From a bacterium (lineage in GTDB: Bacteria; Margulisbacteria; Marinamargulisbacteria; JABIPA01), in NCBI GenBank assembly GCA_018698675.1, contig JABIPA010000019.1, positions 17,902 to 81,901 on the forward strand: a stretch of DNA of 64,000 nucleotides, given 5' to 3'. Shown in pieces: positions 4,001-19,836 of the stretch (position 1 is its first letter; every line of letters begins with the position of its first letter). Below the pieces are notes generated by a model, which saw only the letters and a list, made by a program, of their open reading frames with translations, was not told where the DNA came from and did no database searches. A program made the position numbers and the translations under genes.

Positions 4001-4816
4001 TTAATTAGATAAATTTTCTAAATACGCCTTTGTGAATATATGATTGTCGATAGGACTAAACGTTATATCTGTAATTTCCCAAACCGTTTTGTTTCCTTTT
4101 TCAAAATTATCAATAACCATTTGCTTAATAGCAATAAATTTATCGTTAATTTTTGAATATTTTAGAAAATATTGTGTTGAAATAAGGGAGTTTGAATAAG
4201 ACTTATTTTGAATTTTTAAAGGAAGTAGGTTGTCCTGTCTGACCCATATCGTCAAATTTGGATAAGCGACATTTGGGAGGTCGGAGGAAACGTCAATTTT
4301 GTAAGCTGGAATCTTTCCTAAATTTACCGTTTGAATAATATCTTCATTGTCAGAGTCTTTTTTTCCTTTATACTGCAATTCATATTTAGGTGTTTCGAAA
4401 TCGCTCGTGTTAGCATCTGACCCGGCTATGCTTTCATCTCTGCTTATGTGCTGAAATGTTCGAGTATTTCTTCGGTACATCCAAAAATGATCATCGGCTT
4501 TCAGATACCCATTTCCTTTTTCCGATTCTGGAGCAGTCATGACAATTAAAAATTGGTCCGTAGATCCTTTTGCAAAATAAATAGATTCCATTTGCTTGAT
4601 CCCTTGTTCAATATCTTGTTGAAGAATGGTTACTTTTGCCGTGACATCTTTTTCTATTGTTTGTTGTTTATCTATTTTTTTTAAAATTTTATTGATAGAT
4701 GGTTTTAGTTTAAGGGATGTTGCCGAAAGTGAGGATGCTATCAATATGGTCGTTAAAAAAATAGTTATTGTTAATGGTCTGTTGTTTGAAACTGGGTAGT
4801 TTGTTTTATCATTCAT
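4001..4816 (-). CDS. LolA-like / outer-membrane lipoprotein-sorting-like periplasmic protein
   Basis: N-terminal signal anchor (LTITIFLTTILIASSLSATS). About 270 aa, the size and position typical of LolA_like proteins that accompany FtsX-type ABC exporters. 7-bp gap to the OMP gene and 14-bp gap to the permease gene. Confidence 0.4.
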   Translation of the reverse strand: MNDKTNYPVSNNRPLTITIFLTTILIASSLSATSLKLKPSINKILKKIDKQQTIEKDVTAKVTILQQDIEQGIKQMESIYFAKGSTDQFLIVMTAPESEKGNGYLKADDHFWMYRRNTRTFQHISRDESIAGSDANTSDFETPKYELQYKGKKDSDNEDIIQTVNLGKIPAYKIDVSSDLPNVAYPNLTIWVRQDNLLPLKIQNKSYSNSLISTQYFLKYSKINDKFIAIKQMVIDNFEKGNKTVWEITDITFSPIDNHIFTKAYLENLSN

Positions 4817-4830
4817 TAAATAATCCTTTC

Positions 4831-6531: not shown

Positions 6532-6532
6532 A

Positions 6533-8053: not shown

Positions 8054-8720
8054 TTATTTGGCCGTCGCGTATCGTGATTGATGAATCGGCGTATTTGAGT
8101 ATTTCTGGGTCGTGAGTAGAGAATAAAAACGTTGTTTTTCTAGTTTTATTTAAATCCTTCATTAGTTTTAGAATGATGGCTCCCGTTTCGGAGTCTAAAT
8201 TTGCGGTCGGTTCGTCAGCGAGCACGATTTCTGGGTCAGTCACCAAGGCTCGGGCAATTGCGACTCGTTGACGCTGGCCCCCCGAGAGTTCTGATGGACG
8301 GTGATCTTTTTGGTCCATTATATGAACGGATTTCATCATATCTAAGGCTTTTTGCCTGATTTCTTGTTTAGAGTATTTATTCATTAATAGAAGAGGGAAT
8401 TCTATGTTTTCTAATACATTTAAAACGGGAATTAAGTGGAAGGATTGAAATATAAATCCAATGTTGAAAAGACGAAGTTCTGTTAGCTGGTTATCTGTTA
8501 ATGAATCTATTTGATTTCCGTGAATTTGAACAGATCCTGAACTTGATTTGTCTATACATCCGATAACGTTAAGTAGTGTGGTTTTCCCACTTCCAGAAGG
8601 ACCAACTATCGCTGAAAAGGATCCTTTTTCTATCTTTAAATTAATGTTTTTCAGAGCATGGACAACTGTTTTACCTAAATAATAGTCTTTGTTTATATTT
8701 TTAAGCTCTACAATTGCCAT
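8043..8720 (-). CDS. ABC transporter ATP-binding protein, LolD/MacB type
   Basis: Walker A GPSGSGKTTLLN, Q-loop, ABC signature LSGGQRQRVAIARAL, Walker B LADEPT, H-loop STHD. GGGAG RBS 7 nt upstream of the ATG. Confidence 0.9.
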   Translation of the reverse strand: MAIVELKNINKDYYLGKTVVHALKNINLKIEKGSFSAIVGPSGSGKTTLLNVIGCIDKSSSGSVQIHGNQIDSLTDNQLTELRLFNIGFIFQSFHLIPVLNVLENIEFPLLLMNKYSKQEIRQKALDMMKSVHIMDQKDHRPSELSGGQRQRVAIARALVTDPEIVLADEPTANLDSETGAIILKLMKDLNKTRKTTFLFSTHDPEILKYADSSITIRDGQINAN

Positions 8721-8872: not shown

Positions 8873-9901
8873 TTATGCTATTGTTTCATTTTTGGTTAAG
8901 TGAGTTTCTTTTGTTTTTTCTATTGAAAGATAAGGAATTATTTTATTTTGAATACTTTCCCTCTCTATTTGTTCAATTGACGTTGATTTCTTTCGTATAC
9001 CGTATGTAAAAAGTATTTGAGGAGTATGTTTTAGGGAAAACGTTTTTTGTATTTCATCCGACGAGTCTTTTTCAAGAAAAGGAGCGCCATAAAGACATGT
9101 CGATAAGTTTTGTTGCGACAAATGAAGAAGAATACTTTGCAGATCCTGTCCCGTTTGAATTAGGGTTTTCATGTCTGATTTCGAGGATAGTATGATGATT
9201 CCGTCAGCCGTTAAAATATCTGGATATTTTGTTTTAGCGATTGTTTTTCCTATTGATTGATTGGAAGAAATGATAGGCATTATATTTGACGCGAATGTCG
9301 GAATATTTAATGCAGAGAGTGGAATACCTATTTTTGAAGATGAAAGAATAGATGGAAACATTTTATTTAGGGTGTTTTTGAATTTTTTATCAGTAGAATT
9401 TAGGTCAATTCCTTTTTTTGCGTATTTTTCAATTAATTTAAATGATGATTTTTCCTTTAAAATTTTAATTTCCGAATTAATTTCTCTTCTAAAAAATGTT
9501 TTTTCAGTGTTTAAAATGGGTTTGTCGACAACTTGAGGTAAATATTTGTCTCTATAGTTTTGTCTTTTTTTAATGAGTTGAATAAGTTTGTTATAGCTAT
9601 GTTCGTTTGTTATTTGTTTTGAGTCCATGTTTACGACTATTTTAGCGATGTTTGGATACTGTGTTTGATACTCAATATTTACAAACCGTTTACAACTTTT
9701 TAGTAGGAGTATCACATTTTGAACAAAACATCCGATGCTTATTAGTTGAAAAGACTTGCTTGGATCAAGTTTATTTAAATCTAAATTGGCGTCTGCGCTT
9801 ATTAATATCGTGTTATCGTGAAAGGCAATTTTCCATGGTTGAGTATTGTAATAAGATGGCGCTAAATTGGCGTGTTCAAGAAGCTGAAGTAAATTAAACA
9901 T
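8873..9901 (-). CDS. Nitroreductase-superfamily protein (SagB/McbC-type dehydrogenase-like), 342 aa
   Basis: N-terminal nitroreductase hallmark ...YYNTQPWKIAF... (N-x-QPW FMN-binding motif). Longer than classical NfsB-type enzymes, consistent with the two-lobed SagB-type. GGAG RBS 7 nt upstream. Confidence 0.55.
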   Translation of the reverse strand: MFNLLQLLEHANLAPSYYNTQPWKIAFHDNTILISADANLDLNKLDPSKSFQLISIGCFVQNVILLLKSCKRFVNIEYQTQYPNIAKIVVNMDSKQITNEHSYNKLIQLIKKRQNYRDKYLPQVVDKPILNTEKTFFRREINSEIKILKEKSSFKLIEKYAKKGIDLNSTDKKFKNTLNKMFPSILSSSKIGIPLSALNIPTFASNIMPIISSNQSIGKTIAKTKYPDILTADGIIILSSKSDMKTLIQTGQDLQSILLHLSQQNLSTCLYGAPFLEKDSSDEIQKTFSLKHTPQILFTYGIRKKSTSIEQIERESIQNKIIPYLSIEKTKETHLTKNETIA

Positions 9902-9925: not shown

Positions 9926-10600
9926 TTAAATTATAATGCATGGCAAATTAATATTTTTAATTTCATCTGGGATATCTTTATCATAGTCAAAGTAGTGTAT
10001 TTCCATTGGAAATTTTTTGGATACGTATTTGTTGTGACAAAAGTAGTGAGGGAAGTTTTTTAAAAAATGTGTTTTTATCCCTGATGCATGGAAAAAAGCT
10101 TTTAATACAGATCTTTTACTGCAAATTAACACAATTTTTTTTGAATCAGTTTTTTTAAATTTTAGAAATTGACTATTTAATGTTGATTTAACTAAATTAA
10201 TTCCAATTTGTCTGGAATTTATATACGTTTCTTTTACAACAAGTTTAGTTAATTCTCGGATTTCAAAATTAGAGGTAAGATCGATCTTTTGATTAATTTC
10301 GTCAAAACTCACGTTACCGTATTCTAAGGCGTAGCTGTTTTCTAAATAGGCACCAATCGACCCAATAACTTTTCCATTGGATTTTGCCATTAAAAGTTGG
10401 TCGGGGAAACGTTCGATAGGTTCATTTGAAACAGGTTGTTGGTTTATTAAGGTAACACCATATTTTTTAAAATAAATAGAGGCCATTAACTCTTGGCATT
10501 CTTTTTTTTCGGTTTCATGTTTAACAATTTCTAATGTATGGCTGGACGCGAATTTCGTATTCGTATCATTTAGTTGTTTGATTAATGTTTTGCTAATCAT
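9926..10600 (-). CDS. Hypothetical protein; possibly a GNAT-fold N-acyltransferase / N-acyl-amino-acid-synthase-like protein
   Basis: 224 aa, no TM. Segment NFEIRELTKLVVKETYINSRQIGINLV resembles the E-x-R...V / Q-x-x-G-x-G core of the GNAT/LuxI/NAS fold. Start overlaps the upstream gene's stop (ATGA), indicating translational coupling. Confidence 0.3.
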   Translation of the reverse strand: MISKTLIKQLNDTNTKFASSHTLEIVKHETEKKECQELMASIYFKKYGVTLINQQPVSNEPIERFPDQLLMAKSNGKVIGSIGAYLENSYALEYGNVSFDEINQKIDLTSNFEIRELTKLVVKETYINSRQIGINLVKSTLNSQFLKFKKTDSKKIVLICSKRSVLKAFFHASGIKTHFLKNFPHYFCHNKYVSKKFPMEIHYFDYDKDIPDEIKNINLPCIII

Positions 10601-12885
10601 AGAAATTGGGATACCTTTTCAACGGGTCTTTTTAAGGATGCTATTGGCTCTTGATCCGAATAAAATAATCGAAACAGAAGGACGAGCCCGTTGTCTGACG
10701 AATGTGGAATAATTGGGGTAAATTTATTTTTTAATGAAAGTAGATCTTTTTTAAGCCAAGCTGGAAGAGTTTCTGGCTTTAAATAAAGACGAGTCAGTAA
10801 ATAACAGATGCTCGTCATTGGTTGTAAGCTAAGACCTTCTTTACTTGCTGTTAACCATAATTTTTCAAGTGCCTGTCCTCCATGAAAAAAGCTTAAGGGA
10901 TCATTCTTATCAGTTATAATACATCCAATAGCAGGGCTTTTTTCTATTTGTTTTAAGGAGAAGCTTTCTATCCCTTTTCCTCCCTTAACTTTTTTAAGAA
11001 GTTCAACAACTGACCAGCTTTTTGATAATTTTAATCCAGCGAGATCCAAATTTGATAGATAAAGAGTATCGATATCGATACCATCTCTAGAATCATCAAC
11101 TTCTTTTTTATTCCATCGGATTTCGTTATACATTTCTTCGTGGCATTGTTTGTGAAAGAATCGACATTTTTCTGATTCGGCGAAAATATCCGAAAGTTCT
11201 GCAATGTCTGAAGGGTCTGTTTTAAAAATTACTTTTGTACCTTCAATGCTTTCGCAGGCAGTTGTTAGTTTTGAAAATGTTGACGTTTTAATTTCCTGTT
11301 TTGATGCTTTTTTACGGTTCGTTTTTCGTTTGAATATTTCATTGAATAAATCTGGCATTGTAGTTGTTAGTTCTAATTTTTTAGTTTGTTTAAAAATAGC
11401 AACACATGGAAACGAATCTGGATAAATTGTTTCAAAGGTCATTCCATTTTTTTCGGCGGCTATTTTAAAATTTTCAGCGGCAGCTCCAAGGGCTAAATGA
11501 GAGGCTAGGTAATTTATATCTAAAAATATACCTGCTCTAGATTTGTCTATAAAAAGAAAAACGAGATCGTTGTGGATAATCCACTTCCATGGCTGGATAT
11601 TTCCACCTGAAGGGGCTTGGTTTGCACAATCAATGCATTCGGATATTTTTGATTTTATAATTGGGACTGTAGCTGATAGGTTTTTATCGATTATTATTTT
11701 TTTTGCACAGCTGAATTCATATTCATTAGCGGATATGTCTTTAACTAGCTCCTTATTAGTAGTAATAGATTCCTGAGATTTATTTAAATTATTAGATTCT
11801 GTTTTAGTCGAAGTGGGTTGGTTTTTATCTAGTTCTTCGTCTAAATCGAAATAATAACGCCCCGATTGAGTGTGAGTAGATAACAGAATTCTTCTTGCTA
11901 CGTGAGTTGCAATTCCTGCTCCATTAGAAACTGACGAAGCAAGTTGGGGCCAAGAATTTATGCTTTGTTCAATTTCTAACATACTTGATTTTAATCTATC
12001 GGAAGCATCATTTATTCCAAGAATATCTAAAACTAATGGTATTTTTTCTTCATTTGTAAGATTTTTTAAGTTGGTTTTATTTTCTAAATTAGTAAGTCCA
12101 TGAAATAAAGGTCTGTCAGGCTCTAAATCGAATCGTTCAATATCTAAAAGTTCTCTGTCAGTTGTATGCATGATTACAGGAATGTTTAAGTTTTTACATT
12201 TTTTTCTTATTTCAATTTTTGTTTCAAAGCAGTCACATTCTTCAATAACGAGGTCAAGTTGAGCTGTTTCTGTAAGAAATTCAGAATAATTTTGGGTGTT
12301 TAAACCTTTGTCGAATATTGTTAATTTTAAAAATGGGTCAATTTCAAGTATTTCACGTGCTGTTAAAATTGCTTTGTTCATACCGATGTTTTTTACATTT
12401 GTTCTAATTCTATTTAGATTTGAAAGTTCAATTGAATCGAAATCAGCAAGTCTAATTTCACCGCATATTCTTTCTTGTGCAATAGTTAGCGCTATTGCGT
12501 GACCTACGGATAGCCCGACGACGCCTATTTTTTTTGCTTTTAATTCGATTTGTTCTTCTTCTGAAATTTTGTACATGTTTCTTGCTGTTCTTAATTTAAT
12601 GAATTTATTTTCATCAAGAAGATGCACGAGGTGATTATTCCACGGGTAATATACCCAAACCCCAATGTTATTTTTATTACCTGTGTCAAAATACTGTTTT
12701 TTAGCATTTTCTATGACTTTGTCTGATTTTTCGTTAGGAATAAAGAGTTTTGTATATTCTAATAGTTGACTTTCGATTTCATCAAAAATTTGGATATTGG
12801 AATTGTTTTTTAAATGCACAAGTTTATCAGCGTCGATTGGATTATTAGGATCTAGTATATCTACTTGAAATTTATATTTTTCCAT
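10597..12885 (-). CDS. ThiF/MoeB/E1-like adenylyltransferase domain fused to tandem nitroreductase-like domains (MoeY/Rv1355c-like architecture)
   Basis: E1 Rossmann motif IGVVGLSVGHAIALTIAQERICGEIRLADFDSIELSNLNRI (G-x-x-G-x-x-x-G ... D-x-D ... SNLNR, as in ThiF/MoeB/MccB). C-terminal half carries the nitroreductase hallmark APSGGNIQPWKW. 762 aa. Confidence 0.7.
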   Translation of the reverse strand: MEKYKFQVDILDPNNPIDADKLVHLKNNSNIQIFDEIESQLLEYTKLFIPNEKSDKVIENAKKQYFDTGNKNNIGVWVYYPWNNHLVHLLDENKFIKLRTARNMYKISEEEQIELKAKKIGVVGLSVGHAIALTIAQERICGEIRLADFDSIELSNLNRIRTNVKNIGMNKAILTAREILEIDPFLKLTIFDKGLNTQNYSEFLTETAQLDLVIEECDCFETKIEIRKKCKNLNIPVIMHTTDRELLDIERFDLEPDRPLFHGLTNLENKTNLKNLTNEEKIPLVLDILGINDASDRLKSSMLEIEQSINSWPQLASSVSNGAGIATHVARRILLSTHTQSGRYYFDLDEELDKNQPTSTKTESNNLNKSQESITTNKELVKDISANEYEFSCAKKIIIDKNLSATVPIIKSKISECIDCANQAPSGGNIQPWKWIIHNDLVFLFIDKSRAGIFLDINYLASHLALGAAAENFKIAAEKNGMTFETIYPDSFPCVAIFKQTKKLELTTTMPDLFNEIFKRKTNRKKASKQEIKTSTFSKLTTACESIEGTKVIFKTDPSDIAELSDIFAESEKCRFFHKQCHEEMYNEIRWNKKEVDDSRDGIDIDTLYLSNLDLAGLKLSKSWSVVELLKKVKGGKGIESFSLKQIEKSPAIGCIITDKNDPLSFFHGGQALEKLWLTASKEGLSLQPMTSICYLLTRLYLKPETLPAWLKKDLLSLKNKFTPIIPHSSDNGLVLLFRLFYSDQEPIASLKRPVEKVSQFL

Positions 12886-13113
12886 ATGGTTGTTTGCCTT
12901 ATTTTTTATTTAAAATAGTTTCAAATATTAATTTACATAGTAACTAGATTAGTAGTTGAATATGTGAAATTTTAACCTAATAAAACTTTTTATTTTTTAA
13001 TATTAAGGGAACGCCTTACTAAGAAGTATAAACTTTTTTTTGATTAAAGCAAATGTTTTTCAATTGCGTTTATTTAAGTATAAGTTTTAATGGTTTATGA
13101 CATTGTAATGCAG

Positions 13114-13119
13114 TATAAT
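13114..13119 (+). promoter_or_regulatory. Candidate sigma-70 -10 hexamer (TATAAT) about 45 nt upstream of the PP2C gene start
   Basis: Exact TATAAT at 13114-13119, with TTATGA 13 nt upstream as a weak -35. The divergent 278-bp intergenic region probably serves both flanking operons. Confidence 0.25.
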
Positions 13120-13163
13120 TAATTCTGTTACCAAGTTTATCTTTTACGCTATAAATATAATAT

Positions 13164-14561
13164 ATGAACACAATTACAAACCTTTTGATGCTGTATGGTG
13201 GTATTTTATTAATAAATACTATTATTTCAATTTTTCTTTGGATAAATGATAAATCTAAAACTAGTTTCTATAAAATTATGTTTTATATTTGGTTTTCGAG
13301 TGTTGTTGCTTTTGTTTTTCAAGGAATATTGCAGCAAAATGACTTAGCTATTGTATCTGGTTTTGCTTTTACATTGTTTACTGTTTTTTCTTTAGTTTTC
13401 CTATTTAAAGATATTTATTCTTTTCGGGTACCTATTAAACGATTAGTCGGGTTTTTCGTCGTTTCTTATGGAACAACTATTTTACTTTTAATTAATGGTA
13501 TTGAATTTGTTTATGCTGTTTTGCCTTTGTCCTTTAGTGTTGCATTACCCTTACTTGTTACGGCATATCATGGTTTTTTTAAACGATGGAACGAGCTTAC
13601 CTTTCCCGGGAAAGGATATATTTGGGTAGCTGTAATGTTTTCTATCCATATTTTAGATTTTCCATTTTTGAGAAAGGTTGATTCCGCAGCGACTCTTGGT
13701 TTTTTAATTGCTATTCTCATCGTTTTTGGATTTTCTATTTTCGCGCCTGCCATGGTTATAGAAATTCTTGCAAAAAGGCAAACTCGGATTGTTGCTGAAA
13801 TTGATGTTGCTAAGAAGATTCAAACTGAAATTTTACCTAAAGACCCTCATGTTCCTGGGATGGATCTTACATGTTTTATGAGGCCTGCAGATGAGGTTGG
13901 GGGCGATTATTATGATATTTACTCTGTTGGAGACAAGACATGGTTGTTTCTTGGAGATGTGACTGGACATGGTCTCGGATCCGGCCTCGTGATGTTTATG
14001 GCTCAAAGTATTATTACTTCTATATTAGAGACAAACCAGTCGATTACTCCTATGGGTTTAAATCTGTTGTTTAACCAAATATTATTTAACAATTTGGAAC
14101 GATTGAATGAAAAGCGTCCGATGGCTCTAATTTCTTTATGTTTTGGAAAAAATAATTCGGTTGCTCTTAGTGGTAATCACGATCTTATTTTTGTGTACCG
14201 ATATAAAACTAAATTGATTGAAAAATTGGAACTTTATCAATTTCCTATGGGACTAGGGTTTACCGATAATTTTGATGAGTCTGCGGTAAAAGATGAATCA
14301 TTGGTTTTAGAAGACGGAGATATTTTATTCTTGGGAACAGACGGAATTACTGAAGCGGCGAGACATGGGGACGTTAATTTAGGCATGTTTGGTGAAGAAC
14401 TTTTGGAAAAATGGTTGGAAGAGAATTGTGAAAACACCGTTGATGAAATGAAGAAGTCATTGCTTGAAAAATTGGACAATTATACCAATGGAAATTACTT
14501 TGATGACATTACTTTTGTAATTGCACGTTTAGATTCTCAAAAACTGGGTAAAATTATTTAA
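13164..14561 (+). CDS. Membrane-anchored PP2C-family (SpoIIE/RsbU/SiaA-like) Ser/Thr phosphatase with an N-terminal 6-7-TM sensor domain
   Basis: About 200 aa of successive hydrophobic helices, then a PPM domain with motifs DEVGGDYYD, GDVTGHGLGSGLVM, GTDGITEA and DDITFV (metal-binding Asp residues). Confidence 0.8.
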   Translation: MNTITNLLMLYGGILLINTIISIFLWINDKSKTSFYKIMFYIWFSSVVAFVFQGILQQNDLAIVSGFAFTLFTVFSLVFLFKDIYSFRVPIKRLVGFFVVSYGTTILLLINGIEFVYAVLPLSFSVALPLLVTAYHGFFKRWNELTFPGKGYIWVAVMFSIHILDFPFLRKVDSAATLGFLIAILIVFGFSIFAPAMVIEILAKRQTRIVAEIDVAKKIQTEILPKDPHVPGMDLTCFMRPADEVGGDYYDIYSVGDKTWLFLGDVTGHGLGSGLVMFMAQSIITSILETNQSITPMGLNLLFNQILFNNLERLNEKRPMALISLCFGKNNSVALSGNHDLIFVYRYKTKLIEKLELYQFPMGLGFTDNFDESAVKDESLVLEDGDILFLGTDGITEAARHGDVNLGMFGEELLEKWLEENCENTVDEMKKSLLEKLDNYTNGNYFDDITFVIARLDSQKLGKII

Positions 14562-14563
14562 GT

Positions 14564-15172
14564 ATGGATACAAGTATATTTAAAATTAATAAATTAAGCC
14601 CCAAGAGTTTGTTTTCGGATTCAAAACAATCTTGGTTCTTTGGTGACTACATAACATTAGAAGAAGACGAAATGATTTTTTCGGAATGTCATCTAAAATT
14701 TTTGCCACTCCATTTAATTTCTAAATGGTCTAGATGTGGATTAACAGCCGAATATTTATCAAAGTACATTGCCTTGAATTCAGAGAAGATTATTGAAGTC
14801 GAAAATTTTGCGTCGACTGTGATTAATGAATTGATTGAAAACGCAGTTAAGTTTTCGTTTGATAAGTCAGAATCAATATTGGTATCTATGCACCAAACTG
14901 AAAAAGCAGTGTTGGTTAGGATAGAAAATGTTGCCGATTACGATTCGGTAAAAAAATTCGTGGATTTTTTAGAAGAAATCGACTTAACGGATATAGAAGA
15001 AACGATGATTAAACGAATAGAAAAGAGTGCAACGTCAGATGGAGATGTGTCTGGTTTGGGGATTTTATCTATCATCAATGATAGTGATGTTACCTTTGGT
15101 ATGAAAATTTGTTCAGAATCGGCAGAAGACGAGACGTTTTCAGTAGATATAAAAATATTATTTAAAATTTAG
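14564..15172 (+). CDS. SiaB/RsbW-like anti-sigma-factor-type Ser/Thr kinase (GHKL ATPase-like), paralog 1
   Basis: N-box-like INELIENAVKFS and glycine-rich GDVSGLGILSI. Paralogous to the 15541..16107 product (shared ...SKWSRCGLTAEYLSKY... / ...SEWERCGLISDYLARY...). 2-nt gap after the phosphatase gene. Confidence 0.55.
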   Translation: MDTSIFKINKLSPKSLFSDSKQSWFFGDYITLEEDEMIFSECHLKFLPLHLISKWSRCGLTAEYLSKYIALNSEKIIEVENFASTVINELIENAVKFSFDKSESILVSMHQTEKAVLVRIENVADYDSVKKFVDFLEEIDLTDIEETMIKRIEKSATSDGDVSGLGILSIINDSDVTFGMKICSESAEDETFSVDIKILFKI

Positions 15173-15189
15173 GGAAAAGGGGAGATTTA

Positions 15190-15528
15190 ATGTTTAATAA
15201 AGATTATCAGATAATAGAAGCAAGCGTTGGAGTAATTGGTTTAACAGGAGTTTTAAGATTACCGTCACCAGGTGCTTATGATGCCCCTTTTGCACCTATA
15301 TACGAAAAAATGCAAAATGAAGAATTTCCTACGTTTGTTTTAGATGTAACGGAGCTCGTTTTTTTAAATAGTGCGGGACTAACGGCTTTGGCTCAATTAA
15401 TTATTTATTGTCGGGAACATAATATTCCATTGACGTTAAAGGGAAAGAAAGGTGTTCCTTGGCATGAGAAAAGTATTTCAAGGTCTCTTGCCCGTTTATG
15501 GAAAGAAATGATAGTGGAGCTTGTTTAA
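15190..15528 (+). CDS. Partner-switching target protein, DUF1987 (SiaC-like) / STAS-like
   Basis: 112 aa. ...LRLPSPGAYDAPF... and FVLDVTELVFLNSAGLTALAQLI resemble the SiaC/DUF1987 signature (GDSYPENS ... LYLNTSS) more than canonical RsbV/SpoIIAA. Confidence 0.5.
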   Translation: MFNKDYQIIEASVGVIGLTGVLRLPSPGAYDAPFAPIYEKMQNEEFPTFVLDVTELVFLNSAGLTALAQLIIYCREHNIPLTLKGKKGVPWHEKSISRSLARLWKEMIVELV

Positions 15529-15540
15529 TAGATATTTTAA

Positions 15541-16107
15541 ATGGAAGAAATAGTATACGGACTATATAACGAATTAGATAAAGTTGGAGTAGGTAGCTCT
15601 GAGATAACAATGGATTTTGTGATACCTCTCGAACTAATGTCTGAATGGGAACGTTGCGGGCTAATATCTGATTATTTGGCCCGGTATGAAGCGTTTTCAT
15701 TTGATGATCAAGAGTTAGCAACGCAAGTTCTCTCTACGATAATAAATGAACTTCTAGAAAACGCTGTTAAATTTTCGACTGATAAAAATAAAATTGTGAA
15801 TATTACTATCAAGCATTTTGGGAGTTTTTTGTCTGTTGAAGCAGTAAATAATACAGATGAGGAACATGCCGTAGATTTAGAAACTTTTGTTTCTAAATTG
15901 AAAAAATCTACCCCTGAAGAGTTTTTTTATGAGCAAATCGAAAAAAATGCTTTGGCTCAAAGTGGTAATTTGTCTGGTTTGGGTTTACTGACTTTAGTGA
16001 ATGATTATGAAGCAAAATTAGGTATAAAAATTCAGAAAAGGATTAAAACTGGGTATGACATTTTTACGATGGTTTTGTTTTTTACAAATAATTTTTCAAA
16101 CTCTTAA
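15541..16107 (+). CDS. SiaB/RsbW-like kinase, paralog 2
   Basis: INELLENAVKFS and GNLSGLGLLTL motifs. Clear paralog of the 14564..15172 product. Confidence 0.55.
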   Translation: MEEIVYGLYNELDKVGVGSSEITMDFVIPLELMSEWERCGLISDYLARYEAFSFDDQELATQVLSTIINELLENAVKFSTDKNKIVNITIKHFGSFLSVEAVNNTDEEHAVDLETFVSKLKKSTPEEFFYEQIEKNALAQSGNLSGLGLLTLVNDYEAKLGIKIQKRIKTGYDIFTMVLFFTNNFSNS

Positions 16108-16128
16108 TATATGGTATGTTTGATTTCT

Positions 16129-17601
16129 TCAGAAAGACGTAGTTTCGTCAATTATTTCGTTTTTTAGACGAATCTCTTTTTGGTCGGCTCGTTTGATTGA
16201 AACATTTCCACTAAAAGTAACATTTTTTTCAATGTGAACATTTCCTTCAATTTTGAGACTTTTTACAGTTTTAAGAGAAGGTGTTTCTAATACCCGGTTT
16301 TCATATTTTTCAACAGTATCGAATTCTTTTCCAAGTGATATAGATGGAAGGTCGTTTACATCTACTTGTTCCGAAAACCTGTAGGTATTGTTTTCTTTAA
16401 TCAGAAAATCAGATCGAAGAAGCATAAGGTCTGATGTTTTTTTTACCGGAAGAAATCTCGTTCTAGGTACGACACAAGTAATTGCGTTATCAAACAAATT
16501 TATTGCCGCTCCCATCGCTGTTTCAAGCTGAATAATATTAGTATTATTTATCGTTTTTGGATTTGCAATTAATGGAAGTAGGAAATTTTCTTTTTCCATT
16601 TTTCTTTTCAATTGTTTCAGATTTATCCAAATGTTATTTGTGTTAAATATTTTGAATTTTTGAATGTTTTCAAACTCTGGAAGATGCTCTGTTTCTACTT
16701 GGGCACGTTCAAGGAGAGTTAGTTTATTGTTTACTCTAACTAATGTTCCACCTTTTACATCTAGTTTTGTTTTTTTAGTGGTTTCCATAAGAAAGTCTAC
16801 GTTATTTTCTGACATATAGTTTGGAATAGCTATATCGATAGTCGCTCCAATATTGTCAGAATTGGAAATAAAAATATATTCCTTATTATCGTTTATTAAT
16901 TTATCGATCCATCCAGATTCATTTAATGTTAAAAATACGTCTCCGTGCCCGGGAGGATTCCATTCTTGGTCTGAATTAGTACGCATCGTAAATGGTTCGC
17001 CTGATTGTTTATTTATTTTTGGAAACTGGTTTTGTATGATCGCATTGAATGGTTTGTTTTCTTTTTTAAAAAAACGTTCGGTTTGAGAATGTGTGTTAAA
17101 GCTATTTAATAAAATGAGAGGCAACTTCACTTTATATGTTGATTCAAAAAATGAAAGTTGTTCTTGAATAATAGTTAAGAAATTTTTGTTTTTGAATATC
17201 GGAACTAATGATTTTGGCCCTACACAACCCATTGACGTTCCTAGCCCACCATTTAATTTTAGAACCGCAATTTTTTTAAGGATTGATTGTGGAGAGTCTG
17301 GTTTTTTTAAATCGTCATAATTTATTTCGTCGGATATATTTAAGGGGTTTATTTTAGACCATTCTATTTTAGCTTCTGGGTTAAAAAGGTAGTTTAAATA
17401 GAGTAAGGAAAACGTTAATTTTGTTCCGATTGATTGTTTTTTAAGAGTCATTTTATCTAGATAAATTGGAAGTTTTGTTAGAAATGTTTGCTTCGTAGCT
17501 TCAAAGTTTTGATAAGAACGATATGTCTCAATGTTTGTGTTTATTTTACCTAATTCAGCTTCGTTGAAAAACGCGTTAAGAATATTTTTCATATTACTCA
17601 T
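16129..17601 (-). CDS. UTP-glucose-1-phosphate uridylyltransferase, eukaryotic-type UDPGP family
   Basis: UDPGP-family signature LNGGLGTSMGCVGPKS and C-terminal left-handed β-helix-like region. 490 aa, the size of eukaryotic UGPases rather than GalU. Confidence 0.75.
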   Translation of the reverse strand: MSNMKNILNAFFNEAELGKINTNIETYRSYQNFEATKQTFLTKLPIYLDKMTLKKQSIGTKLTFSLLYLNYLFNPEAKIEWSKINPLNISDEINYDDLKKPDSPQSILKKIAVLKLNGGLGTSMGCVGPKSLVPIFKNKNFLTIIQEQLSFFESTYKVKLPLILLNSFNTHSQTERFFKKENKPFNAIIQNQFPKINKQSGEPFTMRTNSDQEWNPPGHGDVFLTLNESGWIDKLINDNKEYIFISNSDNIGATIDIAIPNYMSENNVDFLMETTKKTKLDVKGGTLVRVNNKLTLLERAQVETEHLPEFENIQKFKIFNTNNIWINLKQLKRKMEKENFLLPLIANPKTINNTNIIQLETAMGAAINLFDNAITCVVPRTRFLPVKKTSDLMLLRSDFLIKENNTYRFSEQVDVNDLPSISLGKEFDTVEKYENRVLETPSLKTVKSLKIEGNVHIEKNVTFSGNVSIKRADQKEIRLKNEIIDETTSF

Positions 17602-19142
17602 TATAGAAATAATTTGTACGCAGGATTATTTGATTCGTTTTTTGTAAAAAATCCTGTTGATTTGAGAAAAGTTTCAAATTTCTCAGAGTCTGGGTTCGGA
17701 ACTTGAATCCCAGCTAGAACCCTACCATAAGCAGCTCCATGGTTTCTGTAATGAAATAGACTGATATTCCAATTATCTCCTAATTGCTTTAGAAAAGTTA
17801 AAAGAGCTCCGGGCCTTTCGGGAAATTGGAAACGATATATCTTTTCGTCTTCTAAATTATTTGTTTTTCCACCGACCATATGACGGATATGTATTTTTGC
17901 CAGCTCATTGTCGGATAAGTCTTGTGCTTTAAAATTTGAAGAGTCAAAAAGTTTCATTAGCTCTAAACGTTCCGAAGATCCATTTGTAAGTTCAATTCCA
18001 ACAAAAATATGCGCATTTTTGGAGTCCGCATACCTGTAATTAAACTCAGTTATAGACCGATTTCCAAGAGAATTACAAAATTTGTTAAAACTACCAGCCT
18101 TTTCAGGAATGGTGACAGCGAATAAGCCTTCTTTGTTTTCCCCAATCTCGGTTCGTTCGGATACATGTCTAAGCCTATCAAAGTTTATATTCGCTCCGGA
18201 GTTTATCGCAACATATGTTTGATTCTTTTTAGATTGAGCGTATTTTTTTAAGCCGGCTAATGCAAGAGCGCCCGAAGGTTCGGCAATAGAACGTGTGTCG
18301 TCAAAAATATCTTTAATCGAGGAACAAATTTCGTCAGTTGTTACTAAAATTACGTCATCGACAGTGTGGGTTAATAGTTTATAAGGTTCTTTTCCAATTT
18401 GTTTTACAGCGACACCATCCGCAAAAATTCCAACATGTTCTAGAATTTCTCTTTTTCCAGACTTTAATGAGTTATATAGAGCTGGGGAATCTTCTGGCTC
18501 AACGCCAATAATTTTGATAGAAGGATCAACAAACTTTAAATAAGCACTAACTCCGGCAATAAGACCTCCACCACCAATCGGAATAAAAACTGCATCAATT
18601 TTTTCTTTCTTTTGGCGCATGATTTCCATTCCAATAGTGCCTTGTCCTGCAATGACTTCTTCGTCGTCATACGGATGAATAAACGTGATGTTTTTCGTTT
18701 TTGCATATTTTGAAGCGAATTCAAAAGACTCGTCGTAGCTATCTCCATGCAGAATTACAGTAGAGCCTAATGCTTTTACCGCGGAAACTTTTATTGAAGG
18801 TGTCGTTTTTGGCATGACTATGGTTGCTTTTAAATTCAATTTTTTAGCTGAAAGGGCAACTCCTTGTGCATGATTTCCAGCGGAGGATGTTACCACTTCT
18901 TCAATTTTTTCAGTTTTTAGAATAGATGAGATTTTATTATAGGCGCCTCTTATTTTAAAAGAGAATACAGGCTGAAGGTCTTCTCTTTTTAAATAAACGT
19001 TATTGTTTGTTCGAGAAGAAGCTAATGCTAGTTTTTGAAGAGGCGTTTCTGTGATGATGTCATAAACAGAGGATCTCAGTATTTTTTCTACAATTTTATT
19101 TAGCATTGTAAGCACCTTATCAAGCCTATTATTTGTCGTCAA
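17601..19142 (-). CDS. ilvA: Threonine dehydratase, biosynthetic (IlvA) with C-terminal regulatory domains
   Basis: PLP-lysine motif SFKIRGA, glycine-rich loop GGGGLIAG. 513 aa with two C-terminal ACT-like repeats. Confidence 0.85.
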   Translation of the reverse strand: MTTNNRLDKVLTMLNKIVEKILRSSVYDIITETPLQKLALASSRTNNNVYLKREDLQPVFSFKIRGAYNKISSILKTEKIEEVVTSSAGNHAQGVALSAKKLNLKATIVMPKTTPSIKVSAVKALGSTVILHGDSYDESFEFASKYAKTKNITFIHPYDDEEVIAGQGTIGMEIMRQKKEKIDAVFIPIGGGGLIAGVSAYLKFVDPSIKIIGVEPEDSPALYNSLKSGKREILEHVGIFADGVAVKQIGKEPYKLLTHTVDDVILVTTDEICSSIKDIFDDTRSIAEPSGALALAGLKKYAQSKKNQTYVAINSGANINFDRLRHVSERTEIGENKEGLFAVTIPEKAGSFNKFCNSLGNRSITEFNYRYADSKNAHIFVGIELTNGSSERLELMKLFDSSNFKAQDLSDNELAKIHIRHMVGGKTNNLEDEKIYRFQFPERPGALLTFLKQLGDNWNISLFHYRNHGAAYGRVLAGIQVPNPDSEKFETFLKSTGFFTKNESNNPAYKLFL

Positions 19143-19836
19143 ATAAATGTGTGAAACGTGGGTCCTCTTTTAGAAAATTTAATGTGTGAATTGGTGAAAT
19201 AGTGTCAGTATTCGATATAGGTGAGTGCTTGTTTTTTTGGTCTGATATTAGGTTTTTTAGGTCTTTTAACGTGTCTATGTCAGATAGTTTTGGGAGGATA
19301 TGAATAGTCTTGTTTTGGGAAAGAATTTTTGTTTTTGTTTCGTTGAAAACGGATTCAGTGCTCCAATTTATATCTTTAAAAATATTATCAAAAAACGCGT
19401 TTTTGTTTATACCTATTAAGTAGTAACCACCATCAAAGGCGGGTCCAATTACTGTATCATTTGTTTCAAGAGAGTCTGACGCTTTTTTAATTAAGGTTCC
19501 AGAAATTTGTGGCGAGTCGGTTCCAATTACGATGACCTTAGAATGCCCATTTTCAAACTCTTTCTTAAACGAATGAATGAGTTTCTCACCAAGGTTTCCA
19601 TCACATTGAAAATTGATTTCTAATGAGGTATTTAACCATTTTTCGTATGCGTTTAAAGATTCGTTTTTTTTTGCATAAATAACGGCGTCGATGTTGTTCG
19701 AGGTTATTGTATTTAAAACATCGGTCGTAAACTTTTTGTAGATTGATGAGGAAAAAGTCATTGAGGTATTCGTTCCGAGCCTCGATTTAACATCCCCGGG
19801 AGTGGGGTACTTTAAGAAAACAATGAGTTTTGTCAT
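19129..19836 (-). CDS. DUF2064 (TIGR04282-type) nucleotidyltransferase/glycosyltransferase-like protein
   Basis: N-terminal KLIVFLKYPTPGDVKSRLG and C-terminal GPAFDGGYYLIGI...INWSTESV match the DUF2064 consensus (PxPGxVKTRL ... PAxDGGYyLlG ... idWsT). Confidence 0.55.
   Translation of the reverse strand: MTKLIVFLKYPTPGDVKSRLGTNTSMTFSSSIYKKFTTDVLNTITSNNIDAVIYAKKNESLNAYEKWLNTSLEINFQCDGNLGEKLIHSFKKEFENGHSKVIVIGTDSPQISGTLIKKASDSLETNDTVIGPAFDGGYYLIGINKNAFFDNIFKDINWSTESVFNETKTKILSQNKTIHILPKLSDIDTLKDLKNLISDQKNKHSPISNTDTISPIHTLNFLKEDPRFTHLFDDK

What the first reader, a model, noticed from the sequence alone, without database searches (positions are those of the whole stretch)
13164..16107. SiaABC-like partner-switching module with a duplicated kinase and no adjacent output enzyme
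The four-gene operon has 0-18-bp spacers and encodes, in order:
- a 7TM-sensor PP2C phosphatase
- a SiaB/RsbW-like kinase
- a DUF1987/STAS-like 112-aa target
- a second paralogous SiaB-like kinase

In Pseudomonas, SiaA/B/C control the diguanylate cyclase SiaD through the phosphorylation state of SiaC. Here no GGDEF or sigma factor follows; the next gene is a convergent UGPase. Two kinases flanking one target could mean two inputs on one switch, or one degenerate pseudo-kinase decoy.
Basis: partly seen in the sequence, partly recalled or inferred. Interest (0 to 1): 0.6.

Follow-up and report, generated by a model that had tools for sequence, protein, structure and literature searches.

The report
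Partner-switch module with hidden enzyme partners
The four genes are a real phosphorylation switch (membrane phosphatase, two related kinases, one small target protein) of a named but biochemically unstudied family, and its likely outputs are not missing: they are the enzyme genes transcribed in the opposite direction just upstream.

Summary
The four ORFs exist exactly as described, with spacers of 2, 17 and 12 nt. All four are under strong purifying selection (dN/dS 0.03-0.05).

They encode:
- a 7TM PP2C phosphatase;
- two paralogous kinases (35% identical);
- one 112-aa STAS protein with an invariant Asn60-Ser61 at the SpoIIAA/RsbV phospho-serine position.

By curated models this is the slr1658/slr1659 (DUF6272) family, not SiaB/SiaC (DUF1987). 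The kinase is only a distant SiaB relative with a SpoIIAB/RsbW fold.

"No adjacent output" is misleading. The divergent upstream genes are a 224-aa LuxI/FeeM-fold acyltransferase and an Rv1355c-family ThiF-nitroreductase protein. In Myxococcota, Gemmatimonadota and other lineages their homologues sit inside the same operon as PP2C-kinase-STAS. Two natural acyltransferase-kinase fusions exist.

In cyanobacteria the downstream partner is usually a class III cyclase or a GGDEF protein. In Leptospira it is a cyclase plus a cNMP-binding FeeM-like acyltransferase.

The gene after STAS (58b) is the canonical kinase. The gene before it (58a) is a divergent duplicate. It is intact here but has lost its ATP-site residues in 5 of 12 duplicated loci elsewhere.

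Verdict: a new variant of a known kind, with moderate interest.

The parts
13164..14561 (+). 7TM-PP2C input phosphatase (465 aa). It has seven predicted transmembrane segments (about residues 5-200) and a cytoplasmic SpoIIE/PPM domain (257-456).
   Evidence: Pfam SpoIIE E 2.6e-25. Metal-site motifs GGDY246, DVTGHG265, TDG392 and DDIT447, plus seven hydrophobic peaks. Full-length homologues (38-45% identity, 94-98% coverage) occur in the acyltransferase cassettes of Myxococcota and Gemmatimonadota. The L024 homologue has a Pfam HisKA_7TM domain. dN/dS 0.037.
14564..15172 (+). 58a: the divergent slr1658-superfamily (DUF6272) GHKL-type kinase paralogue (202 aa).
   Evidence: NF047703 scores 119.6 bits against a cut-off of 100. 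It keeps the N-box INELIENAVKF, Asn at the G1 position and SGLG. It sits on a long branch outside the canonical clade. dN/dS 0.040. Its counterparts in L011, L024, L105, L109 and L110 have lost the N-box Asn and the Asn at the G1 position; L011 and L024 have also lost the SGLG motif.
15190..15528 (+). 59: single-domain STAS-like switch protein (112 aa). The predicted phospho-acceptor is Ser61 (codon 15370-15372) in the motif FLN-S-AGL. A strong Shine-Dalgarno sequence (AGGGGAG) precedes the ATG.
   Evidence: NF047705 slr1659_superfam E 1.2e-17, 64.2 bits (below the cut-off of 100); Pfam STAS 21.9 against 22.6. In the 22-sequence family alignment G20, R23, L24, N60, S61, G63, W91 and K94 are invariant. 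The profile hits solved STAS antagonists (4hyl E 8.6e-4, TM1442, RsfB, SpoIIAA). NSsG aligns to SSAG in 4hyl and DSAG in TM1442, the region I know to hold the phospho-serine. Sequence.
15541..16107 (+). 58b: the canonical slr1658-superfamily kinase (188 aa), orthologue of the single-copy kinase of the acyltransferase cassettes.
   Evidence: NF047703 scores 136.9 bits against 100. In the NJ tree it groups with the post-STAS copies and next to the single-copy cassette kinases. AF2 model pLDDT 85.6. Foldseek top hits are SpoIIAB, UsfX and RsbW (E 8e-5, probability 1.0). The N-box, Asn103 and SxLG motif are intact in 12 of 12 duplicated loci. dN/dS 0.027.
12886..13163 (.). Divergent intergenic region shared by the two operons. 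Invariant blocks lie at 13003-13023 (TTAAGGGAACGCCTTACTAAG) and 13107-13122 (AATGCAGTATAATTA, with TATAAT at 13114-13119).
   Evidence: Alignment of window, L008 and L009 and sequence. The blocks are conserved although synonymous sites between window and L008 are near saturation. Function is not tested. Generic promoter and terminator scans were at the chance level.
10597..12885 (-). Rv1355c-family protein (762 aa): a ThiF/E1-like adenylyltransferase domain fused to a nitroreductase-like domain. It is a candidate partner or output.
   Evidence: NF005901 scores 719 bits against a cut-off of 476. Pfam ThiF plus Nitroreductase. Homologues are co-operonic with PP2C-acyltransferase-kinase-STAS in L013, L014, L015, L022, L089, L091 and L118, divergent in L090 and convergent in L112.
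9926..10600 (-). 224-aa LuxI/FeeM-fold GNAT acyltransferase with no Pfam or NCBIfam family. It is the strongest candidate for the regulated effector.
   Evidence: AF2 pLDDT 89.5. Foldseek top hits are LasI, FeeM, EsaI and BjaI (E 2e-6 to 4e-5). Homologues lie between the PP2C and kinase genes in L013-L015, L018, L019 and L021-L023. Only 60 representatives exist in 1.84 billion proteins. Two of them are acyltransferase+kinase fusions, P0191 and P0201.
8873..9901 (-). Acg-family nitroreductase-like protein (342 aa), in the same divergent operon. Its link to the module is weaker.
   Evidence: NF047509 E 1.9e-36, 126 bits (below the cut-off of 199). Among the fetched loci its only homologue is in L008. 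The nitroreductase-like half of Rv1355c has separate homologues in L014 and L015.

Best explanation
This is a partner-switching phospho-switch of the slr1658/slr1659 (DUF6272 + STAS) family.

**Shown**
- The 7TM-PP2C has an intact PPM active site.
- 58b, and here also 58a, are GHKL-fold proteins of the anti-sigma-kinase type. They have the family's N-box and an SxLG motif, and an Asn in place of the G1 Asp. In the profile alignment, the proven kinase SiaB shares the Asn and the GLGLL part of the lid.
- The STAS protein carries an invariant Asn60-Ser61 at the phospho-serine position.

**Inferred mechanism**
1. The kinase phosphorylates Ser61 of the STAS protein.
2. The membrane phosphatase removes the phosphate when its 7TM domain senses a membrane or envelope cue.
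3. Unphosphorylated STAS binds the kinase, as RsbV binds RsbW.
4. The protein freed or engaged by this switch is an enzyme, not a sigma factor or GGDEF protein. It is the LuxI/FeeM-fold acyltransferase encoded divergently at 9926-10600.
5. That enzyme probably works with the Rv1355c-type E1-like/nitroreductase protein at 10597-12885 to make or modify an acylated small molecule. The adjacent ABC/FtsX/LolA-like system may export it.

**The two kinases.** 58b is the ancestral kinase. 58a is a later duplicate that may act as a second, differently tuned kinase, or as a heterodimer partner or adaptor. Its ATP site is dispensable in other lineages.
For: **Family and parts**
- Family assignment and ORFs.
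- Core triad PP2C-kinase-STAS in most of the roughly 115 fetched loci, from at least 6 phyla.
- STAS phospho-site.
- Kinase fold.
- Shared lid with SiaB, whose kinase activity on SiaC is shown in PMC7647112.

**Link to the upstream enzymes**
- The window's PP2C, 58b and STAS proteins are most similar over their full length to those of cassettes in which the acyltransferase lies between PP2C and kinase with 4-nt gene overlaps.
- The family is tiny and discrete, with 60 representatives.
- Two representatives are acyltransferase-kinase fusion ORFs.
- A ThiF or ThiF-nitroreductase gene is adjacent in 4 of those 5 loci and in several others.

**Enzymes rather than sigma factors as partners across the family**
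- Of 28 genes directly downstream of the STAS gene, 14 are PAS-cyclases and 3 are GGDEF proteins.
- Leptospira has a cyclase plus a cNMP-binding FeeM-like acyltransferase.
- A sigma-70 gene occurs in the flanks of only 2 other loci among 118 sources.

**Both paralogues functional**
- dN/dS 0.04 and 0.03.
- Motifs intact.
Against: - No biochemistry exists for any member of the slr1658/slr1659 family. The only data are genetic: disruption of Synechocystis slr1658 raises pgr5 transcript about 1000-fold by an unknown route (PMC6525291, PMC7555055). That looks like a transcriptional rather than an enzymatic output.
- The family lacks the canonical G1 box (DxGxG), so ATP binding rests on the analogy with SiaB.
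- In the window the acyltransferase and Rv1355c genes are in a separate, divergent operon. Other loci with the kinase-STAS-kinase order (L012, L017, L097, L099) show no acyltransferase within the fetched flanks.
- The fusion ORFs could not be inspected at the DNA level, and fusion could arise from errors at the overlapping ATGA junction. Against that, the two fusions are under 50% identical to each other.
- The direction of control (enzyme as output or as input) is not determined.
- What 58a does is unknown.
Confidence: 0.55

Rival explanations
1. Sia-like reading. The unphosphorylated STAS protein, not the kinase, is the effector-binding species. It activates a nucleotide cyclase (GGDEF or class III) encoded elsewhere in the genome. 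The two kinases are two negative inputs on one switch.
For: - The kinase is distantly related to SiaB.
- The SiaABCD mechanism is established (PMC7278518, PMC7647112).
- Cyclase or GGDEF genes follow the STAS gene in 17 of 28 mostly cyanobacterial loci.
- A cyclase lies inside the Leptospira locus.
Against: - No homologue of those cyclases or GGDEF proteins occurs in the 64-kb window.
- The window's proteins belong to the clade whose cassettes carry the acyltransferase rather than a cyclase.
- The natural fusions join the acyltransferase to the kinase, not to the STAS protein.
- The target is STAS-type, not DUF1987.
Confidence: 0.15
2. Signal-loop reading. The acyltransferase and the E1-like/nitroreductase proteins are upstream of the switch, not downstream. 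They make an acylated molecule that the ABC/FtsX/LolA-like system exports and the 7TM domain of the phosphatase senses. The switch then feeds back on synthesis or on an unlinked target.
For: - The acyltransferase has the fold of acyl-homoserine-lactone and N-acyl amino acid synthases.
- The 7TM sensor phosphatase co-varies with the cassette; full-length homology is confined to acyltransferase cassettes.
- An exporter lies next to the enzymes in the window, and a MacB-type exporter follows the cassette in L090.
Against: - There is no evidence for any ligand.
- Exporter adjacency was seen in only two loci.
- The acyltransferase-kinase fusions argue for direct protein-level coupling, although that is compatible with feedback.
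Confidence: 0.15
3. Classical anti-sigma reading. One or both kinases sequester an alternative sigma factor encoded elsewhere, and the STAS protein is a conventional anti-anti-sigma factor.
For: - Fold matches to SpoIIAB, RsbW and UsfX, and to STAS antagonists.
- The slr1658 mutant phenotype in Synechocystis is transcriptional (PMC6525291).
- One Synechocystis MAG locus (L052) has a sigma-70 gene 528 nt away.
Against: - A sigma-70 gene was found in the flanks of only 2 other loci among 118 sources, and only one of these is close. The search was seeded with a primary-like sigma factor and may miss ECF types.
- None of the 28 genes directly downstream of STAS is a sigma factor.
- The only sigma factor in the window is primary-like and 43 kb away.
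Confidence: 0.07

Closest known systems
slr1658 / slr1659 of Synechocystis sp. PCC 6803 (NCBIfam NF047703 and NF047705; Pfam DUF6272)
   Same: - Both kinases pass the superfamily cut-off.
- The STAS protein's best full-length hit is slr1659_superfam.
- The same PP2C-kinase-STAS triad occurs in cyanobacterial loci, including a Synechocystis MAG (L052).
   Different: - Neither kinase is the cyanobacterial equivalog (82 and 90 bits against a cut-off of 200).
- The STAS protein scores below the superfamily cut-off (64 against 100).
- The kinase is duplicated.
- The phosphatase has a 7TM input domain, where cyanobacteria have large multi-domain N-termini.
- The linked genes are an acyltransferase and an Rv1355c-type protein rather than PAS-cyclase or GGDEF genes.
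SiaABCD of Pseudomonas aeruginosa
   Same: - A membrane PP2C, an unusual small GHKL kinase and a small phospho-target.
- The kinase shares Asn at the G1 position, a helical lid and a GLGLL motif with SiaB.
- The acceptor follows an Asn: LN-T68-SS in SiaC and LN-S61-AG here.
- The output is an enzyme rather than a sigma factor.
   Different: - The SiaA, SiaB and SiaB-family models are all far below cut-off.
- The target is STAS, not DUF1987.
- There is no GGDEF gene.
- There are two kinases.
- The fusion evidence points to the kinase, not the target, as the enzyme's partner.
RsbU-RsbV-RsbW and SpoIIE-SpoIIAA-SpoIIAB partner switches of Bacillus. From my own knowledge, the RsbT/RsbW pair is a precedent for two paralogous kinases in one pathway.
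   Same: - A SpoIIE-type PP2C, a STAS protein with serine at the same helix-start motif, and a kinase with the SpoIIAB/RsbW fold.
- The proposed logic is the same: the kinase holds a partner that the unphosphorylated STAS protein displaces.
   Different: - No sigma factor is linked.
- The kinase has an extra N-terminal region of about 55 residues with the W-x-R-C-G-L motif and a helical lid, and it lacks the DxGxG box.
- Pfam HATPase_c, HATPase_c_5 and STAS scores are below their gathering cut-offs.
LuxI-type acyl-homoserine-lactone synthases and FeeM N-acyl amino acid synthases (for the 224-aa partner)
   Same: The predicted fold matches LasI, EsaI, BjaI and FeeM best. Leptospira loci of the same switch family carry a Pfam FeeM-domain protein.
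   Different: - No sequence-level membership: no Pfam or NCBIfam hit.
- Homologues give only sub-threshold GNAT hits.
- hhalign against the Leptospira protein is not significant.
- HMMER finds a closed family of 60 representatives.

Membership tests
slr1658 superfamily regulator (NF047703 / DUF6272) | Whole-protein HMM score at or above the curated cut-off of 100 bits | tested here: met
   58a scores 119.6 bits and 58b 136.9 bits.
slr1658 superfamily regulator (NF047703 / DUF6272) | Family-invariant residues: NELxENAxK, Asn103 and SGLGL (numbering of 58b) | tested here: met
   All are present in both window paralogues.
slr1658 family protein, cyanobacterial equivalog (NF052618) | HMM score at or above 200 bits | tested here: not met
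   The paralogues score 82.1 and 89.7 bits. A cyanobacterial member scores 279.
slr1659 superfamily regulator (NF047705) | HMM score at or above 100 bits | tested here: not met
   The score is 64.2 bits, E 1.2e-17, aligned over the full length (4-107 of the protein to 6-109 of 111). STAS proteins of the acyltransferase-cassette clade also score 73-95, while cyanobacterial and Leptospira ones pass.
slr1659 superfamily regulator (NF047705) | Encoded next to an slr1658-type gene and sharing the family's invariant residues | tested here: met
   Iterative HMM search links it to 88 neighbours of slr1658-type genes. G20, R23, L24, N60, S61, G63, W91 and K94 are invariant in 22 diverse members.
SiaB family protein kinase (NF038262) | HMM score at or above 85 bits | tested here: not met
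   The paralogues score 13.5 and 22.5 bits. A 90-residue fragment of SiaB itself scores 97.
SiaABCD system | Target protein is a DUF1987 (SiaC-type) protein | tested here: not met
   No DUF1987 hit at E <= 1. The profile hits STAS structures and not SiaC.
SiaABCD system | SiaA-type phosphatase (NF038263, cut-off 700) and a co-operonic GGDEF protein (SiaD) | tested here: not met
   SiaA model scores 43.7 bits. No GGDEF or cyclase homologue occurs in the window.
STAS anti-sigma-factor antagonist (PF01740 / TIGR00377) | HMM score at or above the gathering cut-off | tested here: not met
   PF01740 scores 21.9 against 22.6. TIGR00377 scores 19.5 against 53.45.
STAS anti-sigma-factor antagonist (PF01740 / TIGR00377) | Conserved Ser/Thr in the D/N-S-x-G motif at the start of the helix (phospho-acceptor) | tested here: met
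   Ser61 is invariant. The family motif NSsG aligns with SSAG of 4hyl and DSAG of TM1442. That this region holds the phospho-serine of SpoIIAA/RsbV rests on my own knowledge. Phosphorylation itself is not testable here.
GHKL anti-sigma serine kinase (SpoIIAB / RsbW type) | Bergerat fold | tested here: met
   AF2 model pLDDT 85.6. Foldseek hits SpoIIAB, UsfX and RsbW at E 8e-5 to 4e-3, probability 1.0, TM 0.53-0.76 on the target.
GHKL anti-sigma serine kinase (SpoIIAB / RsbW type) | N-box, G1 box (DxGxG) and G2 box | tested here: inconclusive
   The N-box is present. The G1 DxGxG box is absent in the whole family and an invariant Asn takes its place. The G2-like SGLG motif is present. In the profile alignment the proven kinase SiaB has the same Asn and a GLGLL motif.
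GHKL anti-sigma serine kinase (SpoIIAB / RsbW type) | Cognate sigma factor encoded alongside | tested here: not met
   A sigma-70 gene was found in the flanks of only 2 other loci among 118 sources. None follows the STAS gene in 28 loci.
PPM/PP2C phosphatase, SpoIIE type (PF07228) | HMM score above cut-off and the four metal-binding Asp motifs | tested here: met
   89.9 bits against 25. GGDY, DVTGHG, TDG and DDIT are all present.
Rv1355c family protein (NF005901) | HMM score at or above 476 bits; ThiF domain plus nitroreductase-like domain | tested here: met
   719.2 bits, aligned over residues 3-760. Pfam ThiF and Nitroreductase.
LuxI / FeeM acyltransferases | Sequence-model membership (Pfam Autoind_synth or FeeM) | tested here: not met
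   No Pfam hit for the window protein at E <= 0.01. Its homologues give only weak Acetyltransf_1 hits.
LuxI / FeeM acyltransferases | Fold | tested here: met
   AF2 pLDDT 89.5. The top Foldseek hits are LasI, FeeM, EsaI and BjaI.

The most novel reading that the evidence does not exclude
The window holds a rearranged copy of an undescribed five-component cassette. Its parts are a 7TM-PP2C, a LuxI/FeeM-fold acyltransferase, a DUF6272 kinase, a STAS protein and an Rv1355c-type E1-like/nitroreductase protein.

In this reading, a GHKL 'anti-factor' kinase directly holds a small-molecule-making enzyme instead of a sigma factor, and a membrane 7TM phosphatase releases it. The product would be an acylated signal or lipid that is exported and possibly sensed by the same 7TM domain. 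That would amount to a partner-switch-gated, quorum-sensing-like circuit.

It would also give a first functional context to the Rv1355c and Acg protein families of mycobacteria. The duplicated kinase would let one switch govern two enzymes, or add a non-catalytic adaptor.
Probability: 0.2. Interest if true: 0.8.

Novelty: new variant of a known kind. Interest (0 to 1): 0.55.

Why it matters
Partner-switching modules are a well-known logic. Their non-sigma outputs, however, are known for only a handful of systems, such as SiaD and HsbD (from my own knowledge).

**The family**
- The slr1658/slr1659 family is widespread: at least 501 loci among one genome per species, across cyanobacteria, Leptospira, Myxococcota, Gemmatimonadota, Proteobacteria and Margulisbacteria.
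- It has a striking genetic phenotype in Synechocystis but no biochemistry.

**What this analysis adds**
- The family is coupled to enzymes, and the enzyme type changes with lineage.
- In one clade the coupled enzyme is a rare, discrete acyltransferase family seen only in this context, twice fused to the kinase, together with an Rv1355c-type protein of unknown function.
- This gives concrete, testable partners for an orphan signalling family and for two orphan enzyme families.
- It also offers a natural series for studying how a catalytic partner-switch component becomes a non-catalytic one. The duplicate kinase is intact here and has lost its ATP-site residues in five other loci.

Tried and rejected
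- **DUF1987/SiaC identity of the target.** No hit, and the PDB profile search gives STAS rather than SiaC. Rejected.
- **SiaA and SiaB membership.** Far below cut-offs. Rejected, though distant homology is retained.
- **Pseudo-kinase in this window.** Both paralogues keep all invariant residues and have similar dN/dS. Rejected for the window.
- **Sigma-factor output.** No adjacency. Judged unlikely.
- **Cyclase or GGDEF elsewhere in the window.** None.
- **Word-indexed homologue search with the 112-aa protein.** It found only an identical sequence. I recovered homologues from the neighbours of kinase genes instead.
- **Single-sequence PDB search with 58b.** Nothing meaningful.
- **PDB profile search with the acyltransferase.** Nothing significant. 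The fold search was needed.
- **hhalign of the acyltransferase family against the Leptospira FeeM/cNMP protein.** Not significant (probability 0.5%). That parallel rests only on fold and Pfam class.
- **Promoter and terminator scans.** At the chance level in this AT-rich DNA.
- **Literature.** Searches for DUF6272, 6KKO, Rv1355c function, and partner-switch plus acyltransferase found nothing relevant.

Full report
**1. Observation**

The region 13164-16107 holds four co-directional ORFs at exactly the stated coordinates: 465, 202, 112 and 188 aa. The spacers are 2, 17 and 12 nt. A convergent UTP-glucose-1-phosphate uridylyltransferase gene ends 21 nt downstream. The window has about 32% G+C throughout.

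The genes are real.
- A relative with 89-93% identical proteins (L008, GCA_018699495.1, annotated only as 'bacterium') has the same genes in the same order.
- Against that relative, dN/dS is 0.037 for the phosphatase, 0.040 for the first kinase, 0.046 for the target and 0.027 for the second kinase. dS is about 1-1.9, so the ratios are rough but clearly far below 1.

**2. What the proteins are**

*Gene 1, the phosphatase.* It has a SpoIIE/PP2C domain at residues 257-456 (Pfam E 2.6e-25). All four metal-site motifs are present, and seven hydrophobic segments lie in the first 200 residues. '7TM sensor phosphatase' is therefore a fair description. A homologous phosphatase in L024 carries a Pfam HisKA_7TM domain.

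*Genes 2 and 4, the kinases.* I call them 58a and 58b.
- They are 35% identical (E 1e-27).
- Both pass NCBIfam's cut-off for the 'slr1658 superfamily regulator' (119.6 and 136.9 bits against 100).
- Both fail the SiaB-family model (13.5 and 22.5 bits against 85).
- Pfam gives only sub-threshold DUF6272 and HATPase hits.

*Gene 3, the target.* I call it 59. Its best hit is 'slr1659 superfamily regulator' (E 1.2e-17, full length, 64 bits, below the cut-off of 100). It just misses Pfam STAS (21.9 against 22.6). DUF1987 is not hit at all.

**3. Kinase features**

I aligned 27 family members.
- Invariant residues are the N-box (NELxENAxK), an Asn where the G1 box Asp would be, and an SGLGL motif. 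No member has a DxGxG box.
- Both window paralogues keep every invariant residue.

A profile of the family finds chain 6kko_A as its best solved relative (E 0.043). The alignment covers exactly the Asn, the helical lid and the GLGLL region. I confirmed that the aligned 90-residue fragment of this chain is SiaB. It scores 139.8 bits on the kinase_SiaB equivalog, whose full-length cut-off of 225 a fragment cannot reach, and 97.2 bits on the SiaB family model, above its cut-off of 85.

SiaB is an experimentally proven kinase of SiaC (PMC7647112). A missing canonical G1 box therefore does not argue against kinase activity.

The AlphaFold model of 58b is confident (pLDDT 85.6). Its best structural matches are the anti-sigma kinases SpoIIAB, UsfX and RsbW.

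**4. Target features**

A word-indexed search found only an identical sequence. I therefore collected the small ORFs next to kinase genes in related loci.
- In 22 diverse members G20, R23, L24, N60, S61, G63, W91 and K94 are invariant.
- The profile hits solved STAS anti-sigma-factor antagonists: 4hyl (E 8.6e-4), TM1442, RsfB, SpoIIAA and 4qtp.
- The family's NSsG aligns with SSAG in 4hyl and DSAG in TM1442. From my own knowledge, this motif holds the phosphorylated serine of SpoIIAA and RsbV.
- SiaC is not hit, although its acceptor also follows an Asn: LLYLN-T68-SS against VFLN-S61-AGL here.

So the target is STAS-type, with Ser61 as the predicted acceptor.

**5. Distribution and core architecture**

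A scan of one genome per species found at least 501 loci.
- The nearest relatives (43-46% identity) are Candidatus Marinamargulisbacteria and unclassified marine MAGs.
- The family also occurs in cyanobacteria, saprophytic Leptospira, Myxococcota, Gemmatimonadota and alpha- and gamma-proteobacteria.

I searched the ORFs of the fetched loci with HMMs. The triad PP2C-kinase-STAS is the conserved core.

**6. What the switch is coupled to**

*Cyanobacteria.* I took 28 loci with a gene directly downstream of the STAS gene. Of these genes, 14 encode PAS plus class III cyclase proteins and 3 encode GGDEF proteins. One example is Kamptonema.

*Leptospira.* The locus order is kinase, STAS, a FeeM-type acyltransferase with a cNMP-binding domain on the other strand, PP2C, a class III cyclase, and a second kinase.

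*The window's own clade.* This is the decisive result, from comparing the window's neighbours with all loci. Two divergently transcribed upstream genes have homologues inside the cassette in other phyla.
- One is the 224-aa ORF at 9926-10600, which has no Pfam or NCBIfam family.
- The other is the 762-aa Rv1355c-family protein at 10597-12885, a ThiF domain plus a nitroreductase-like domain (719 bits against 476).
- L013 has the order Rv1355c, PP2C, 224-like, kinase, STAS.
- L022 has PP2C, ThiF, 224-like, kinase, STAS.
- L018, L019, L021 and L023 have PP2C, 224-like, kinase, STAS.

The window's phosphatase is homologous over its full length, 7TM domain included, only to the phosphatases of these cassettes (38-45% identity, 94-98% coverage). 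It matches cyanobacterial phosphatases only over the catalytic half.

I then tested the association from the other side.
- I searched with the 224-aa family (255 clusters) and looked up the members on the five longest contigs.
- All five lie between a PP2C gene and a DUF6272 gene followed by a STAS gene, mostly with 4-nt overlaps.
- Four of the five have a ThiF or ThiF-nitroreductase gene adjacent.

An exhaustive HMMER search of 1.84 billion representatives finds only 60 members at E <= 0.001, with no tail into larger families. Two of them, P0191 (416 aa) and P0201 (381 aa), are single ORFs with the 224-like domain followed by the kinase domain.

**7. Identity of the 224-aa protein**

- Its homologues give weak, sub-threshold GNAT hits.
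- The AlphaFold model is confident (pLDDT 89.5).
- Its best structural matches are the acyl-homoserine-lactone synthases LasI, EsaI and BjaI and the N-acyl amino acid synthase FeeM (E 2e-6 to 4e-5).
- Sequence-level relatedness to the Leptospira FeeM-type protein is not significant.

**8. The duplicated kinase**

The order kinase-STAS-kinase, usually preceded by PP2C, recurs in the window and in L001, L002, L008, L009, L011, L012, L017, L024, L092, L093, L097, L099, L109 and L110. L105 has the whole pair duplicated.

In a neighbour-joining tree the post-STAS copies (58b) form one group next to the single-copy kinases of the acyltransferase cassettes. The pre-STAS copies (58a) sit on long, scattered branches. 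This is a rough method for such divergent sequences.

Across 12 duplicated loci:
- 58b always keeps the N-box, Asn103 and SxLG motif.
- 58a keeps them in seven loci, including the window.
- 58a has lost the N-box Asn and the Asn at the G1 position in five loci (L011, L024, L105, L109, L110), and L011 and L024 have also lost the SGLG motif. It still retains the N-terminal W-x-R-x-x-L/I motif.

So 58b is the ancestral kinase. 58a is a duplicate whose function does not everywhere need an ATP site. In this window nothing marks it as degenerate.

**9. Mechanism proposed**

*Shown:* the parts, their motifs, their folds, and the conserved gene linkage and fusions.

*Inferred:*
1. The kinase phosphorylates STAS at Ser61.
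2. The 7TM phosphatase reverses this in response to a membrane or envelope cue.
3. Unphosphorylated STAS engages the kinase.
4. The partner exchanged is the LuxI/FeeM-fold acyltransferase, probably acting with the Rv1355c-type protein.

The fusions favour the kinase as the enzyme's direct partner, which is RsbW-like logic. The alternative is the STAS protein as partner, which is SiaC-like logic. This is not settled. Rival readings are given separately: a remote cyclase, a signal loop with the 7TM domain as receptor, and a remote sigma factor.

The genetic data on Synechocystis slr1658 show pgr5 transcript up about 1000-fold by an unknown route. They show that the family has large regulatory effects but do not reveal the mechanism.

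**10. Comparison and novelty**

The logic is that of known partner switches. By family this is slr1658/slr1659, not SiaABC and not a canonical RsbVW pair.

In the held literature I found no paper naming DUF6272, none giving a function for Rv1355c, and none linking a partner switch to an acyltransferase. Three observations appear to be new:
- the cassette linkage;
- the acyltransferase-kinase fusions;
- the series of intact and ATP-site-deficient forms of the duplicate kinase.

I therefore rate this a new variant of a known kind, of moderate interest. It rests on comparative genomics and predicted structures, with no biochemistry.

Noticed in passing
L009 (ENA ERZ23491542 scaffold_12058), compared with window 12213-16392: The contig is a mosaic. 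It is 100% identical to the window up to about 15,450, then 100% identical to the roughly 82%-identical relative L008 from about 15,500 onward. The breakpoint lies at the 3' end of the STAS gene. This is either recombination between co-occurring strains or a chimeric assembly.
   Followed up: partly
window 13003-13023 and 13107-13122: Two blocks in the divergent intergenic region are invariant between window and L008, although synonymous sites are near saturation. One is a GC-rich 21-mer, TTAAGGGAACGCCTTACTAAG. The other is AATGCAGTATAATTA, with TATAAT 45 nt before the phosphatase ATG. They may be an operator and a promoter.
   Followed up: partly
window 4001-8720 (- strand); L090 9041-11695: Downstream of the Rv1355c, acyltransferase and Acg-like genes lie an ABC ATPase, two FtsX-type permeases and a LolA-like protein. 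A distant cassette (L090) is followed by PadR plus a MacB_PCD/FtsX exporter. This may be a product exporter.
   Followed up: no
P0191 (416 aa) and P0201 (381 aa), from the representative library: These are single ORFs that fuse the 224-aa-type acyltransferase domain to an slr1658-type kinase domain. Their DNA and hosts could not be inspected.
   Followed up: partly
L003-L005, L026-L033, L103, L107 (Leptospira): The locus order is kinase, STAS, a FeeM-type acyltransferase with a cNMP-binding domain on the opposite strand, PP2C, a class III cyclase and a second kinase. Some loci have PP2C directly after STAS. The arrangement suggests a relay from switch to cyclase to cNMP to acyltransferase.
   Followed up: partly
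L011 65-607, L024 3755-4294, L105 7069-7599, L109 7044-7559, L110 1460-1987: The pre-STAS kinase paralogue has lost the N-box Asn and the Asn at the G1 position in all five. L011 and L024 have also lost the SGLG motif. All five remain open and keep the N-terminal W-x-R-x-x-L/I motif, so they look like pseudo-kinases.
   Followed up: yes
L105 6623-8474; L060, L070, L113, L116: L105 has the whole STAS-kinase pair duplicated in tandem after one PP2C gene. The other four loci (L060 and L070 are titled alpha-proteobacterial MAGs) carry two sets flanking one PP2C gene. In L070, L113 and L116 one STAS-like match lies inside a 385-392-aa ORF.
   Followed up: no
L052 9119-10237 (Synechocystis sp. MAG): A 372-aa sigma-70 family gene lies 528 nt from the slr1658/slr1659-type pair, on the opposite strand. 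This is one of only two such cases in the flanks of the other loci among 118 sources. It may be relevant to the transcriptional phenotype of slr1658 mutants.
   Followed up: no
window 8873-9901 and 10597-12885: Two members of mycobacterial orphan families sit side by side in a marine, low-GC, probably Margulisbacteria-related genome. One is Acg/Rv3131-like (126 bits, below cut-off) and the other is of the Rv1355c family (719 bits).
   Followed up: partly
window 19129-19836 (- strand): This ORF passes the cut-off for TIGR04282, the 'arsenosugar biosynthesis glycosyltransferase' family (180 bits against 134). It is unrelated to the finding.
   Followed up: no
window 88-2679, 2695-3993, 31184-33205, 58743-59522: Several long ORFs have no Pfam family, or only a marginal one: 863 aa, 432 aa, 673 aa and 259 aa.
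   Followed up: no
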